DNA from: Eledone cirrhosa
Taxonomy: Eukaryota
Assembly (NCBI GenBank): GCA_964016885.1
Contig: OZ024743.1
Location: 40,548,001 to 40,612,000 of the forward strand
DNA length: 64,000 nt
Reading direction: 5' to 3'
Shown: piece after piece, positions 3,350-62,682 of the stretch
Layout: each line of letters opens with the position of its first letter
Position numbering within the stretch: the first letter of the stretch is position 1
Notes under the pieces: model-generated
What the model was told of the DNA's origin: nothing
What the model saw: only the letters and a program-made list of their open reading frames with translations
Database searches by the model: none
Program-made: the position numbers and the translations under genes

Positions 3350-4670
3350 GAAAACAGGGAGAAAGAGACGAGTATTAGGAAGAAAAATATATTTTTTTCC
3401 TTTTTTGTTTCTCTCTCTCTCTTTTTTCTGGGTTAGAAAATGATTAAAACGAAATGTTTTACTTTGTGTGAAGTGTTAAGGTATTAGTTGATTTATTTAT
3501 TATTTAACAATGGCATTTATTCATCTATTTATATGTTTAATAATTTTCTATTACCGGTTTCACCATATTAATATGCATTATCAAATGATAGTGCAATGTA
3601 TTAGTGTGGTGTCACACATGTTAAAGAGAAGGTGTGGAAAGTATAATGTTATTTACTCCATCATGGAATCATGGTTCAACTAAGCACTCTTGCCATATTA
3701 ATACATTTTGATCTGCTTAACTTCAAGAACTATGCCTGTAAATAACATTATTTTTTCAACATTGACTTTTTATGCTCTACATTATATCCATTTCCTTTTT
3801 CTTTTTTCTTTTTTCTTTTTTCTTTTTTCTTTTTTCTTTTTTCTTTTTTCTTTTTTCTCTTTTCTTTTTTCTTTTTTCTTTTTTCTTTTTTTCTTTTTTT
3901 CTTTTTTTCTTTTTTTTCTTCTTTTTTCTTTTTTCTTTTTTCTTTTTTCTTTTTTCTTTTTTCTTTTTTTCTTTTTTCTTTTTTCTTTTTTATTACTTTT
4001 TTCTTTTTTTATTTTTCCTTTTTTATTTTTTATTTATTCTTTTTTATTTTTTATTTATTTTTTATTTTTTTAATTTTTTTTTATTTTTTTTTATTTTTTA
4101 TTTTTTTTTTATTTTTTATTTATTTATTTATTTTTTTTTTTTAATTTTATTTTTTTTTTATTTTTTATTTTTGTCTTGTCTTTTTTATTTTTTATTTTTT
4201 ATTTTTAATATTTTTTATTTTTTTTATTTTTTTTTTTTTATTTATTTTATTTTTTTTTATTTTTGTTTTTTATTTTTTTATTTATTATTATTTTTTTATT
4301 TTTTTTTATTTATTTATTTTTTTTTTTATTTTATTTTATTTTTTTTTTCACTTCATAAACCTTGTTTGTAAATAACATTATTCTTTCTGCACCTTCTCTT
4401 TAACATGTGTAACACCACACTAATACATTCCACTAGCATTTGATAATGCATAAAATGCTGAAACCGGTAATAGACAATTATTAAATATATAAATAGATAA
4501 ATAAATGCCATTGTTAAATAATAAATAAATCAACTAATACCTTAACACTTCACACAAAGTAAAACATTTCGTTTTAATCATTTTCTATCCCAGAAAAAAG
4601 ATAGAGAGAGAAACAAAAAAGAAAAGAAATATATTTTTCTTCCTAATAATGGTCTCTTTCTCCGTTTTCA
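3350..4670. mobile_element. Inverted pLTR-like pair (arms ~3350-3640 and ~4390-4670) around a T-rich tract; U3-A8 HHR-like motif at ~4438-4473 (+) and ~3549-3587 (-)
   Basis: Reverse-complement arms. TTGATAA T-GCAT AAA ATGC-T GAAA CCGG TA; stem I is weak. Confidence 0.65.
3790..4350. repeat. T-rich low-complexity tract, (TTTTTTC)n grading into (TTTTTA)n
   Basis: Seen directly; source of the Phe-rich pseudo-ORFs. Confidence 0.9.
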
Positions 4671-4776
4671 TATATATATATATATATATATATATATATA
4701 TATATATATATATATATATATCGTAACTCATGTGCTTTCTCTCCACATGTTATTGTTATGTATAGATATATATATA

Positions 4777-6265
4777 TTGTTATACTTTGGGAGGGTCATG
4801 TTGCCAATAAGAAACACACGCACCAGTTGCTTTCACTTCAATTTATTATAAATTTATAAATTTACCAATCTACAAACTTATAAATTTCTGGTTGGTTGGT
4901 TGGTTTTGGTACGGGTGATGAGAAATTCGTCCCGCATGTGCAACCCCGAAGAACTAGAGAGACACATACAGCACTTCATCCACCGTATGCAGTTCTCTGG
5001 CTACAATCCGAGAGATAGAATCAGAGTGTATAGAGGAGCCAGAATCAAATGGGAAAAAATGGTAAATAATGACATAAATGGGACCTGCCCCTTATATAGG
5101 AGAAAATTTTGGAATAGAATAGAAAGAACTAGGAACAAGGCCAATAGAATAAACTCATGGTATGATAGCAATAAATACCAGAGTGTAATGTTCATCAATA
5201 CAACCCCTAGTGGCGAACTAGCCTACAAATTTAGAAAGGCCCTAAATAAACATAAACTCAATATTAAGACAGTAGAAAGACCAGGTACCTCCGTAAAAAC
5301 ACTTATTAGCAAGACATACCCGTTCGAAGACCCTCATGTATAGATAAGAAATGTATAACCTGTAAAATAAGGCTCCATATTAACTGTAAAACTAGAAATG
5401 TAGTGTATAGCATAAGATGTACTAAAGGACAATGTAGAAACAAAAATATAGTGTACATAGGTGAGACAGCTCGTAGTATAGGGGAACGAATAAATGAACA
5501 CTGGCGAGACCTTCAAGATAATAAGGAATCATCTGTGCTCTACCAACATGCTAAGATAGAACACAGGGGTAGATTAGAGAGCTTAGAAATAAAAATAGAA
5601 TCCACACACAGAAAAGACGCAATGTTTAGGCATAAAAGAATTACAACCAAAATTAAATAGAAAATATGAGTGGAACAGCAACATCACAACTTACAATTAA
5701 GGACAAAATGAAAACACACACAGGACAAAATGAAAACACACACACACACATAGAACAAACAACTTACAATTAAGGACAAAATGAAAACACACACAGGACA
5801 AAATGAAAACACACACACACATAGAACAAACAACCAACCAACATTAAATAAATAAATAAATAAATAAACAAATAGATAAATGAACACAAACACACACAGA
5901 CAGCCGGATGTGGCGCATGCGCAAACTGAGCACACAACACACACACATAAACAAAATGGCGTAGGATAGAAGAAAGGAAAGGCACAGAAACAAAGAAAGG
6001 CATCCCCAGTCACTGAAGAGGTCACCGAGTGTGTGACGAAAGGACTATGACTATATATAAAACTATCTGGTTGTGGAACCAACCAACCAACCAGAAATTT
6101 ATAAGTTTGTAGATTTGTAAATTTATAAATTTATAATAAATTGAAGTGAAAGCAACTGGTGCGTGTGTTTCTTATTGGCAACATGACCCTCCCAAAGTAT
6201 AACAATATCGGTTTCAACACACGATTTCAGATAAAGAATCTTGCTAAACAAATTCAGAAACGAAA
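4777..6265 (+). mobile_element. PLE family A copy: short inverted arm 4777-~4903, then RT thumb, Cys linker, GIY-YIG and pLTR
   Basis: ORFs 4900-5343 (LVRVMRN...RMQFSGY...KTYPF) and 5403-5660 (YIGETARS), joined by a frameshift near 5328; CIDKKCITC linker in the second frame. Confidence 0.9.
6008..6052 (+). ncRNA. Minimal type I HHR of PLE family A. Copies at 145-187(-), 1359-1401(+), 13705-13749(-), 46289-46331(-), 46742-46784(+), ~63363-63405(-, mutated core)
   Basis: AGTCA CTGAAGA G GTCAC...GTGAC GAAA GGAC TA TGACT; stem I AGTCA/TGACT; one extra G before stem II. Confidence 0.7.
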
Positions 6266-6388
6266 TATATATATATATATATATATATATATATATATAT
6301 ATATATATATATATGTATATATATATATAAATAGAAAAAATGAAACTAAATTTCATTTTCCACTCTTAGTACGGCTGTTACTTAAATA

Positions 6389-6840
6389 TAAGTATGTACA
6401 CGTACATACATATATGTATACAGACGTACAGTAGTATGTATATATATATATACATACATGCACACATATATATGTACGTATGGATTCACCGAACATTTAT
6501 TATAATGCTCGATGTGTTTGTAAACAAACATCCCGTATTAAGCCGTCGTGTCTAGCAACCATCGTTGCTCGTTTATTCAACACTGACAAAGGAACGCTGT
6601 ACTAGTTTCAAGCTTGAAACTAGTACAGCGTTCCTTTGTCAGTGTTGAACAAACGAGCAACGATGGTTGCTAGACACTACGGCTTAATACGGGATGTTTG
6701 TTTACAAACACATCGAACTTTATAATAAATGTTCGGTGAATCCATACATACATATATATATATGTGTGCATCTATGTATATATACATATACATACTACTG
6801 TACGTCTGTATACATATATGTATGTACGTGTACATACTTA
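6389..6840. repeat. ~450-bp fold-back palindrome centred on AAGCTT (6610-6615), at the stem II position of an HHR 3' half
   Basis: ...CTGTACTAGTTTC AAGCTT GAAACTAGTACAG... Confidence 0.85.
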
Positions 6841-6945
6841 TATATATATATATATATATATATATATATATATATATATATATATATATATATATATATA
6901 TATATATATATATATATATATGTATATATATATATATATATATAT

Positions 6946-7057
6946 AAGCAAATGTATGAATGAATGAACGAAGGAGTTACAAGCCATTAAAACAAGTTCT
7001 TTATATAAAGAACTTAATTTAACGGCTAGTAAGTCCTTCACTCATTCATTTGCTTAT
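6946..7057. repeat. Imperfect ~110-bp hairpin at the 5' end of an insertion in (TA)n
   Basis: TAAGCAAATG...AAGTTCTTTA TA TAAAGAACTT...CATTTGCTTA. Confidence 0.7.
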
Positions 7058-61405: not shown

Positions 61406-61454
61406 GCTTCTACAGGACTAGTACTGTTTCATTCAGATGAAATCTTCAGGAAGC
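61406..61454 (-). ncRNA. Type I HHR in a ~120-bp insert within (TA)n
   Basis: RC: GCTTC CTGAAGA T-TTCA TC TGAA-T GAAA CAG TACTAGTC CTG TA GAAGC; stem III is one mismatch from a 16-nt palindrome. Confidence 0.75.
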
Positions 61455-61583
61455 CATGTATTGGGTACCTTACTTACTGTAGTTATCCCCGACTCAACCC
61501 GGGACCTACGTATATATATATATATATATATATATATATATATATATATATATATGTATATATACATATATATATATATATAC

Positions 61584-61814
61584 ACTTTGGGAGGGCCATG
61601 TTGCCAAAGAGAAACACATGCACCAGTTGCTTTCACTTTAATTTATTATAAATTAAATATATAAATTGCTAAATTTAATTTATAATAAATTGAAGTGGAA
61701 ATTTCTGGTGCATGTGTTTCTTTTTTGCAACATGACCCTCCCAAAGTATAACAATATCGGTTTCAACACACGTTTTCAGATAAAGAATTTTGCTAAACAA
61801 ATTCAGAAACGAAA
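61584..61814. mobile_element. Short PLE family A fold-back
   Basis: CTTTGGGAGGGCCATG...CATGACCCTCCCAAAG plus the standard tail. Confidence 0.85.
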
Positions 61815-61927
61815 TATATATATATATGTATATATGTATACATATATATATAAATATATATATATATATATATATATATATATATATATATATATATATA
61901 TATATATATATATATATGAAAAATATG

Positions 61928-62410
61928 TGCTAAACCTGATTATATATGTTCTGCCTCGTTAATTTATTAACCTGCCATTGAACCACATTGGCATATGGTT
62001 GAACAATACATGTGTCCCTTAGCGCTTTGTGCGTGTAGAAACACATCCTATTATTAGTTTCCTCCTCTATGTTGAGAAAAAATTTGGTCGTTCCGACTGC
62101 TGCTAGTGATAGTGGTGGCCGATTGACCTACCTCCCTCTGCCTCTATCTTTACTTTCGGCCCTTGAAAAAATTGATTCCACTTCATCTCGGGAACAGTTT
62201 TGGATAGCGCTAGTTTGTAATTTAAATTCAAGAATTTCATATTCTTCGAATGAAAAGAACCTTCTGACGATAATCTTTCTTTGCAACAAAGGCCGTATGG
62301 TCTCCGTTTATTTTTGAGATTCGATATTTGAGGTAACTATAGTAAGTAAAGTCAATTTTTTAAAATTTATTTGGAAACTTTTTCATTATTTGCTAAACCT
62401 GATTATATAT
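61928..62410. mobile_element. 463-nt non-coding unit with ~20-bp terminal direct repeat, between TA tracts
   Basis: TGCTAAACCTGATTATATAT at 61928 and 62391; only degenerate HHR-like pieces (CTGACGA ~62264, GTAACTATAGTA ~62333). Confidence 0.55.
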
Positions 62411-62641
62411 ATATATACAGTATTTACGTATCGAGAGAGAGAAAAAAAAAGGGTTGGGGGTATAGGTGATACATATAGTTATTTGCCAAGTAGCGTATGC
62501 CAAAGGTGTTCGATGCTAGTGCCGGCAGTATTAAATATTCGAAGTGTTAATATTTAGTGGGCTAGAGAGTTAGCAGAGCGTAAGCACGTGGGAAAGTAAG
62601 AAATCGGAGAATAGACCGTTAAAACATGTTTATTTAAACAC

Positions 62642-62682
62642 CACCCACGTACGTTTCGCCGAGTTGGGCTTTTCAAGGGCAT
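62642..62682 (-). ncRNA. U3-A8 HHR apparently lacking N17 (or carrying G17)
   Basis: RC: TGCCC TTGAAAA GCC CAACTC GGC GAAA CGTACG T GGGTG. Confidence 0.6.

What the first reader, a model, noticed from the sequence alone, without database searches (positions are those of the whole stretch)
3549..62682. Six unrelated families use a compensated U3-A8 hammerhead core (TTGAAAA or TTGATAA)
Seen: at 4440, 16669, 27955, 29725, 35211 (+) and ~62671-62677 (-), the position of CTGANGA is occupied by TTGANAA, followed by a paired stem II, GAAA (GCAA at 35231) and a palindromic stem III (ACCGGT in four families). Both arms of the inverted pairs retain it. Established: C3-G8 is a tertiary Watson-Crick pair, and U3-A8 is a known but uncommon functional covariant. 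Inference: the variant is unusually common in this lineage, possibly from AT pressure or tuned-down cleavage, and CUGANGA-only searches would miss it.
Basis: partly seen in the sequence, partly recalled or inferred. Interest (0 to 1): 0.75.

Follow-up and report, generated by a model that had tools for sequence, protein, structure and literature searches.

The report
Swapped-core hammerheads in Penelope retrotransposons
Several jumping-gene families in this large animal genome carry a hammerhead-shaped RNA motif whose core pair is U-A instead of the usual C-G, a swap already published for other animals; here it arose a few times rather than six, marks about a fifth of such motifs, and is predicted to cut weakly, with one family of over 10,000 copies likely no longer cutting.

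Summary
The motifs are real and U3-A8 is the family state, not decay. With an ACCGGT anchor the genome holds 23,046 U3-A8 cores against 188 U3G8, 195 C3A8 and 110 C3G8. The families are not six unrelated ones. The four ACCGGT families sit behind related Neptune-type Penelope-like (PLE) proteins that form one group (83/94 support). 62676 belongs to a Hydra-clade PLE, and 29725 to a 591-bp tandem retrozyme-like repeat. The trees need at least three core switches. In an unbiased 1-Mb sample, U3-A8 is 21 of 103 compensated motifs; C3-G8 stays the majority. U3-A8 in PLE hammerheads was published for Schistosoma in 2014 (about 1,300 copies), and this scan noted it before in this and another genome. 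New here: U3-A8 motifs have short stem I helices, and the 35211 family (10,479 copies, RT-endonuclease frames) has also fixed A13C. Copy ends pile up about 70 nt upstream of the cut site, not at it. So templates are likely copied uncut and cutting is likely weak. AT pressure is not supported. Cleavage was not tested.

The parts
3298..3656 (-). Inverted arm of a 5'-truncated family-B PLE copy; U3-A8 core 3584-3578, H17 (A) at 3552
4368..4721 (+). Family-B (4440) PLE 3' end; core 4440-4446, U.U at 10.1-11.1, GAAA 4460, ACCGGT palindrome, H17 (A) 4469, stem I 2 bp
   Evidence: family linked to a Neptune-type endonuclease in L149, L151, L152, L155-157
15527..15958 (-). Inverted arm of a family-C PLE copy; core 15764-15758, H17 (C) at 15727
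16475..16889 (+). Family-C (16669) PLE 3' end; core 16669-16675, 5-bp stem II, ACCGGT, H17 (C) 16706, stem I 2 bp
   Evidence: linked to RT-EN in L158, L162
25748..26013 (-). Inverted arm of the family-A copy; core 25857-25851, H17 (A) at 25828
26014..26939 (+). Broken 3' part of the family-A PLE frame: RT thumb, C-X4-C-XX-C linker and GIY-YIG endonuclease (Pfam PF01541, E 2e-7)
27951..27988 (+). Family-A hammerhead: stem I 4 bp, core 27955-27961, stem II 4 bp, GAAA 27975, ACCGGT, H17 (A) 27984; TATA-like box about 100 nt upstream of the cut site
28820..29329 (-). Inverted arm of the 591-bp retrozyme-like repeat; core 28984-28978, H17 (C) 28905
29331..30048 (+). 591-bp retrozyme-like repeat unit; core 29725-29731, 59-nt stem II arm, GAAA 29791, ACTACGTAGT, H17 (C) 29804, stem I 5 bp with a distal extension
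35115..35440 (+). Short family-E copy with a fold-back junction; core 35211-35217, GCAA (A13C) 35231, ACCGGT, H17 (A) 35240, stem I 2 bp here and 3 A-U pairs in most copies
62404..62841 (-). 3' end of a Hydra-clade PLE copy; core 62676-62670, ACGTACGT palindrome, G at position 17 (62646; family has A), stem I 2 bp
9869..11291 (-). Comparator: 466-bp tandem repeat with three C3-G8 type I hammerheads (10199, 10665, 11131); weak Rfam Hammerhead_HH9 hits below the gathering score

Best explanation
The six sites are minimal type-I hammerhead-shaped motifs in the terminal repeats of Penelope-like retrotransposons and of one tandem non-coding repeat, all carrying U3-A8 as the family state; four families likely inherited the swap from one ancestor, and the motifs are predicted to cut weakly, as dimers. 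Shown: sequence, copy numbers, linkage to RT-endonuclease frames, tree positions, copy ends. Inferred: two copies in a tandem transcript pair through the palindrome to form stem III, U3 pairs with A8 in place of C3-G8, and cleavage would fall after H17. The swap likely arises by two transitions (through U.G or C.A) in a master element and then spreads with it. It likely persists because these elements can copy uncut RNA, so a slow ribozyme costs little. In family E (35211) the constraint has likely relaxed further (A13C fixed).
For: Family state: 23,046 U3A8 vs 188 U3G8, 195 C3A8, 110 C3G8 with the same anchor; double decay predicts 1.6 revertants, and most of the 110 belong to another family. 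Other families: 98 of 99 family rows listed, 97 of 100, 100 of 100. Sequencing contigs show no variant at 5% or more at positions 3 or 8 of family A. Selection on a hammerhead fold across families: N7 varies (A, U, G), H17 is A, C or U, and stem II covaries, while the flanks of five of the six sites share no blastn match. In 1 Mb: 82 C3G8, 21 U3A8, three single hits of other classes, shuffles at most 1 per class; no G3C8 or A3U8. One Neptune-type group for families A, B, C, E against two C3-G8 outgroup families, 83/94; two changes forced in the Hydra clade, AU p=0.029. Weak fold: stem I median 4 vs 6 bp; forcing the 1.1-2.1 pair costs 4-6 kcal/mol in B, C and E copies and nothing in A, the retrozyme and the C3-G8 controls. 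Uncut templates: 15 of 51 unanchored copy starts lie at -82..-60 and 0 of 51 at -3..+3; on inspection at most 2 of 38 junctions within 45 nt lie at the cut. PMC11167929 reports that a PLE inserts from unprocessed RNA in vitro.
Against: No cleavage assay and no RNA data. A pairwise scan of a type III hammerhead found only the G3-C8 swap rescuing (PMC9901934, passages), so U3-A8 may be nearly inactive in some backgrounds; PMC3088659 says covarying 3-8 pairs were active in vitro. The Neptune-type U3-A8 group is not starred, was left open in the mixture-model tree, carries a long-branch warning and rests on only two outgroup families. The trees cannot tell gain from loss. The pile-up of copy starts upstream of the core also occurs in a C3-G8 family (G), so it does not single out U3-A8. 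Copies are not independent, so the stem I p-value overstates the evidence. The copy-end samples are small and partly anchored on the motif.
Confidence: 0.75

Rival explanations
1. U3-A8 is a selected down-tuning: a weaker core pair slows cutting so that full-length tandem RNA survives to be reverse-transcribed, and cutting happens late with help from the element's protein.
For: Repeated independent switches to the same pair; short stem I accompanies it; a Poseidon hammerhead needs its protein to cut (PMC11167929, passages).
Against: About 80% of motifs keep C3-G8 and those families are equally or more abundant. The C3-G8 family G shows the same uncut-template copy ends. Family E thrives with A13C as well.
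Confidence: 0.2
2. In the ACCGGT lineage the motif no longer cuts at all; the fold or the palindrome is kept as a dimerisation or protein-binding signal.
For: Stem I is 2-3 bp in B, C, D and E; A13C is fixed in 98 of 100 listed copies of a 10,479-copy family; ACCGGT is shared across the lineage; no copy starts pile up at the cut.
Against: N7 is free, H17 avoids G and the U3-A8 pair is kept across RT distances of 0.3-0.7 changes per site, which is the pattern of catalytic constraint. The ACCGGT anchor was part of my search, so its invariance is partly built in. Family A keeps a 3-4 bp stem I.
Confidence: 0.2
3. AT-biased mutation pressure drives C3-G8 to U3-A8 across the lineage.
For: The window is 32% GC; both steps are transitions towards A/T; no transversion swaps were seen in 106 motifs.
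Against: Upstream flanks of U3-A8 motifs are not more AT-rich (38% vs 36% GC); their stem III palindromes keep CpG while many C3-G8 families use all-AT palindromes; S. mansoni has the variant too (PMC4209133).
Confidence: 0.1
4. The sites are independent decay products of C3-G8 hammerheads or chance matches in AT-rich DNA.
For: TTGAAAA is a common word in AT-rich DNA; one of the 21 sampled U3A8 hits (L085, G17) looks spurious.
Against: 23,046 hits vs 48 in the control, and single mismatches at about 0.8% each.
Confidence: 0.01

Closest known systems
U3-A8 minimal hammerheads of Cercyon PLEs in Schistosoma mansoni (Cervera and De la Pena 2014, PMC4209133; parts 1-3 of 4 of the text read, supplement searched)
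   Same: Same core covariation in PLE terminal repeats, short helix I, palindromic stem III, mostly in truncated copies, inverted pairs; about 1,300 U3-A8 hits there; two UUGA-core rows in its supplement.
   Different: Here at least about 42,000 copies; placed on protein trees in two PLE clades and in a tandem retrozyme-like repeat; one large family adds A13C; stem III keeps a 6-10 nt palindrome.
Natural core variants of hammerheads (Perreault et al. 2011, PMC3088659; section 8 and passages read)
   Same: U3/A8 covariation seen in nature; U10.1-U11.1 mismatch (as in family B) tolerated.
   Different: A13C is not among the variants named in the text I read (an insertion U13a is); the figures and supplements were not seen.
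Hydra-clade PLE hammerheads (Craig et al. 2021, PMC8557442; sections 3 and 11, passages, Files S1-S2 rows read)
   Same: The 62676 family has the RWK, DKT and CxCX5C motifs and a hammerhead near its 3' end; TA-repeat insertion and inverted 5'-truncated copies.
   Different: All 34 rows of File S2 have a C3-G8 core; their relaxed core search string was cuganga.
Metazoan non-LTR retrozymes (Cervera and de la Pena 2020, PMC7229834, passages; Li et al. bioRxiv 10.64898/2026.07.22.740005, part 1 of 5)
   Same: The 29725 family is a non-coding tandem repeat with one type I hammerhead per unit.
   Different: The unit is 591 bp (the invertebrate circles described are about 170-400 nt), with a U3-A8 core and a 59-nt stem II arm; circular RNA is not shown.

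Membership tests
Type I minimal hammerhead ribozyme | Core N3-UGA-N7-N8-A9 with a Watson-Crick 3-8 pair | tested here: met
   U3-A8 in all six families; uncompensated forms about 0.8-3%
Type I minimal hammerhead ribozyme | G12-A13-A14-A15.1, U16.1 and H17 | tested here: met
   Met in five of six families; see the next row for the sixth
Type I minimal hammerhead ribozyme | A13 in family E (35211) | tested here: not met
   C13 in 98 of 100 listed copies; family E is hammerhead-derived but is not filed as a functional member
Type I minimal hammerhead ribozyme | Stem II with covariation, and stem III formed by a palindrome (dimer) | tested here: met
   Stem II pairs change on both sides between families; palindrome duplexes of -8.3 to -12.9 kcal/mol
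Type I minimal hammerhead ribozyme | Stable stem I | tested here: inconclusive
   4-5 bp in family A and the 591-bp repeat; 2-3 bp in B, C, E and the 62676 family; a 2-bp helix I is described for Drosophila virilis Penelope (PMC4209133)
Type I minimal hammerhead ribozyme | Self-cleavage after H17 | not testable with these tools
   No assay; no RNA run listed
Penelope-like element, endonuclease-containing | [quoted passage not shown] | tested here: met
   A: window 26014-26939 and L230; B: L149, L151; C: L158, L162; E: L213-L220; 62676: L221-L224
Penelope-like element, endonuclease-containing | Pseudo-LTRs in tandem, inverted 5'-truncated copies, two fixed 3' ends (tail) | tested here: met
   L220 has two motifs 4.8 kb apart around the frames; recurrent 3' ends A +79 (21 copies), E +130/+171 (23 and 19 copies), 62676 family +60 (11 copies)
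Neptune clade (families A, B, C, E) | CX2-5CxxC linker zinc finger, two cysteines between GIY and YIG, DKG motif | tested here: met
   Seen (DKG in E and in outgroup G)
Neptune clade (families A, B, C, E) | Placement with reference Neptune rather than Nematis RTs | not tested
   No reference set was used; the label Neptune rests on recalled motif style, and Nematis shares the linker (PMC8557442)
Hydra clade (62676 family) | RWK, DKT and CxCX5C motifs, no CCHH | tested here: met
   L221-L224 against PMC8557442 section 11
Non-LTR retrozyme (29725 family) | Non-coding tandem unit with one type I hammerhead per unit | tested here: met
   591-bp period in many listed copies, longest ATG frame 75 codons
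Non-LTR retrozyme (29725 family) | Transcription and circular RNA | not testable with these tools
   No RNA holder was listed for the one stretch searched, which was family A

The most novel reading that the evidence does not exclude
This genome records a retrotransposon lineage stepping away from ribozyme catalysis: C3-G8 became U3-A8 once in a Neptune-type ancestor, stem I shrank, and a young autonomous daughter family fixed A13C and still made over 10,000 copies from uncut RNA, so the PLE hammerhead is dispensable or has become a dimerisation or protein-binding signal.
Probability: 0.3. Interest if true: 0.65.

Novelty: new member of a known kind. Interest (0 to 1): 0.42.

Why it matters
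Practically, CUGANGA-only descriptors miss about a fifth of the hammerhead-like motifs in this genome (at least about 42,000). Biologically, what PLE hammerheads do is an open question. A graded natural series in one lineage (C3-G8 outgroup; U3-A8 with 4-bp stem I; U3-A8 with 2-bp stem I; U3-A8 plus A13C), each with thousands of copies and known proteins, makes it directly testable whether cutting matters for PLE spread. The core swap itself is not new.

Tried and rejected
Rfam scan of the window: among the 150 of 296 matches shown, the only hammerhead hits were three below-threshold HH9 hits on the C3-G8 466-bp repeat; none fell on a U3-A8 site. No RNA holder listed for window 26900-28100. 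Laying contigs of two runs gave no usable ends or splice joints; one GT..AG skip in one contig was not followed. The idea that copies start at the cut site was rejected after reading the junctions: the +6 and +8 starts in family E run upstream across the cut. The C3A8 sites at 6583 and 6642 are a fold-back junction of a C3-G8 repeat, not a mismatch ribozyme. A second core-like string about 177 nt upstream of the family-A motif has no convincing stems. Searches for uncompensated families with a short stem II found none: 350 and 374 hits against controls of 314 and 191. These patterns cannot see the long-stem C3.A8 family reported in earlier notes, which I could neither confirm nor refute. No protein frame was found for the related ACCGGT subfamilies D, F and G' in the 15 or so copies fetched, so they are not on the tree. 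Lunse et al. 2017 and Przybilski and Hammann 2007 are not held; they may already report U3-A8 or A13 variants and rates. Paper searches for U3-A8, C3U, G8A, A13C and octopus hammerheads found no report of an A13C PLE hammerhead in the held library.
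Full report
Observation. A descriptor of core, stem II, GAAA and palindrome finds 5 U3-A8 sites (7 when relaxed) against 0.07-0.18 in shuffles. The window also holds 12 C3-G8 hammerheads by a strict scan, plus one decayed copy. The genome is a 2,996-Mb animal assembly. Earlier notes call it octopus-like; I did not determine the organism.

Family state or decay. With the anchor GAAACCGGT and a spacer of 11-23 nt, the genome has 23,046 U3-A8 cores (reversed-pattern control 48), 188 U3G8, 195 C3A8 and 110 C3G8 (control 155). 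Single mismatches are 0.8% each, and double decay predicts 1.6 revertants. Most of the 100 listed C3G8 hits belong to another family in which the anchor lies inside stem II. The 29725 family has 6,945 hits, with 98 of 99 listed family rows U3-A8. The 62676 family has 2,020 hits, 97 of 100 listed U3-A8, mostly TTGAGAA. The 35211 family has 10,479 hits, 100 of 100 U3-A8, and 98 of 100 with GCAA. Contigs of two sequencing runs laid on family A show no variant at 5% or more at positions 3 or 8, but about half of the depth carries a stem I variant that shortens it to 3 bp. Together these exact patterns give a lower bound of about 42,000 U3-A8 motifs.

How common. In 100 evenly spaced 10-kb stretches the same descriptor found 82 C3-G8, 21 U3-A8 and three single hits of other classes; shuffles gave at most 1 per class (the first 60 stretches gave 43 and 9 with a stricter rule). 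The U3-A8 share is 20% (exact CI 13-29%), or 17 of 72 when tandem and inverted copies in a stretch are counted once. One of the 21 looks spurious. No G3-C8 or A3-U8 swap was seen. Cervera and De la Pena (PMC4209133) report about 1,300 U3-A8 hits beside about 2,000 C3-G8 minimal motifs in S. mansoni. So the share here is not exceptional; the absolute number is. The 150 nt upstream of U3-A8 motifs are 38% GC against 36% for C3-G8 motifs, which does not favour AT pressure.

How many origins. Five of the six sites share no blastn match in their flanks; 27955 and 35211 match over 34 nt of the motif. The proteins tell another story. Families A (27955), B (4440), C (16669) and E (35211) all lie 0.4-1.2 kb behind related RT-GIY-YIG frames; the best-preserved B, C and E endonucleases are 46-57% identical to that of A. 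Two other families of the same type have C3-G8 motifs (G; P). A tree of about 500 columns joins A, B, C and E against G and P with 83/94 support, not starred and with a long-branch warning; the mixture-model tree left this fork open. A, E and G also share a short upstream module with a TATA-like box at the same distance from the motif. The 62676 family lies behind a Hydra-clade frame (RWK, DKT, CxCX5C). Among 14 Hydra-type rows, a second U3-A8 family (L292) pairs with a C3-G8 family (L290) at 96/97, two changes are forced, and one U3-A8 clade is rejected (AU p=0.029; six rows were under half filled). The 29725 family is a 591-bp non-coding tandem repeat with no link to a protein. A further U3-A8 group appeared four times in the sample without a protein link. 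So there are at least three switches on the trees and perhaps four or five in all, not six from these six sites; direction cannot be read from unrooted counts.

How it likely works. The architecture is the published PLE minimal type I hammerhead, where a palindrome forms stem III between two tandem copies (PMC4209133). Palindrome duplexes are -8.3 to -12.9 kcal/mol. Across families N7 varies, H17 is A, C or U, and stem II changes on both sides, which is the pattern expected from selection on the catalytic fold (established hammerhead rules, partly recalled). U3-A8 keeps the tertiary pair. PMC3088659 says covarying 3-8 pairs were active in vitro, but a pairwise scan of a type III hammerhead saw only the G-C swap rescue (PMC9901934, passages). 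Three signs point to weak cutting. First, stem I has a median of 4 bp against 6 bp (copies are not independent), and forcing the 1.1-2.1 pair costs 4-6 kcal/mol in B, C and E copies, 2-3 in the 62676 family, and nothing in A, the repeat and the C3-G8 controls. Second, family E has fixed A13C yet has frames of 450-650 codons, copies up to 96-99% alike and over 10,000 motifs. That A13 changes cripple hammerheads is recalled from Ruffner et al. 1990, which I did not read; PMC9901934 states that core mutants other than the G-C swap had low activity in the CUGA region. Third, copy 5' ends pile up at -82..-60 from the cut site (15 of 51 unanchored starts) about 30 nt behind the TATA-like box, with 0 of 51 at -3..+3. 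Reading 38 junctions within 45 nt of the cut left at most 2 at the cut, no more than an even spread gives. This suggests reverse transcription through an intact motif up to the RNA start, as found in vitro for a Poseidon element (PMC11167929). The same pile-up occurs in the C3-G8 family G, so it explains why a weak core is tolerated but not why U3-A8 arose.

What is known. U3-A8 in nature was described in 2011 (PMC3088659) and in PLE repeats in 2014 (PMC4209133). All 34 hammerhead rows in File S2 of Craig et al. have C3-G8. My searches found no report of these families or of an A13C PLE hammerhead, but two key papers were not held, and figure-only data were not visible. Earlier notes of this scan report the same swap in this genome, the 591-bp repeat, a U3-A8 repeat in another genome, and a long-stem family with a C3.A8 mismatch. 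I confirmed the first two; my patterns could not see the last.

Verdict. A real and abundant but published core variant, carried by new members of known element kinds, with fewer origins than claimed. The parts worth following are the graded series within one lineage and the A13C family.

Noticed in passing
window 27883-27915; L284; L283: Families A, E and the C3-G8 family G share a short module with a TATA-like box about 100-125 nt upstream of the cut site, and copy 5' ends cluster about 30 nt behind it: a likely pLTR promoter and start site.
   Followed up: partly
window 29712-29750: In the 591-bp repeat a 5-nt stretch of the stem I internal loop is complementary to a stretch at the start of the stem II arm (possible loop-loop pairing), and the same stretch can form a local hairpin that competes with stem I.
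   Followed up: no
G000 hits (stem II types AAGCATATAATGCT and AGCCTACAAGCT; L170-L174, L183): Older ACCGGT subfamilies appear with C3G8, C3A8, U3G8 and U3A8 cores; they may preserve intermediates of the switch.
   Followed up: no
L046-L105, L317-L356: About 100 hammerhead-like motifs per Mb in the unbiased sample, which would extrapolate to roughly 300,000 in the genome.
   Followed up: partly
L220 / L284 (5271-1630, minus strand): Family E has a 455-codon upstream frame overlapping the RT-endonuclease frame; natural frameshift or decay was not resolved.
   Followed up: no
L240, L283: A young Neptune-type C3-G8 family with many open 775-codon frames.
   Followed up: partly
window 9869-11291: 466-bp tandem repeat with a canonical C3-G8 hammerhead; arrays of 30 or more units elsewhere.
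   Followed up: partly
window 382-1116, 4852-5660, 14020-14772, 63652-64000: Fragments of another PLE type (GIY-YIG at 5310-5657) whose hammerhead was not clearly identified.
   Followed up: no
window 41934-44500 and 54417-58135: Many copies of a dispersed, roughly 200-bp SINE-like repeat; an RTE-like RT fragment with a PHD finger lies at 48000-49276.
   Followed up: no
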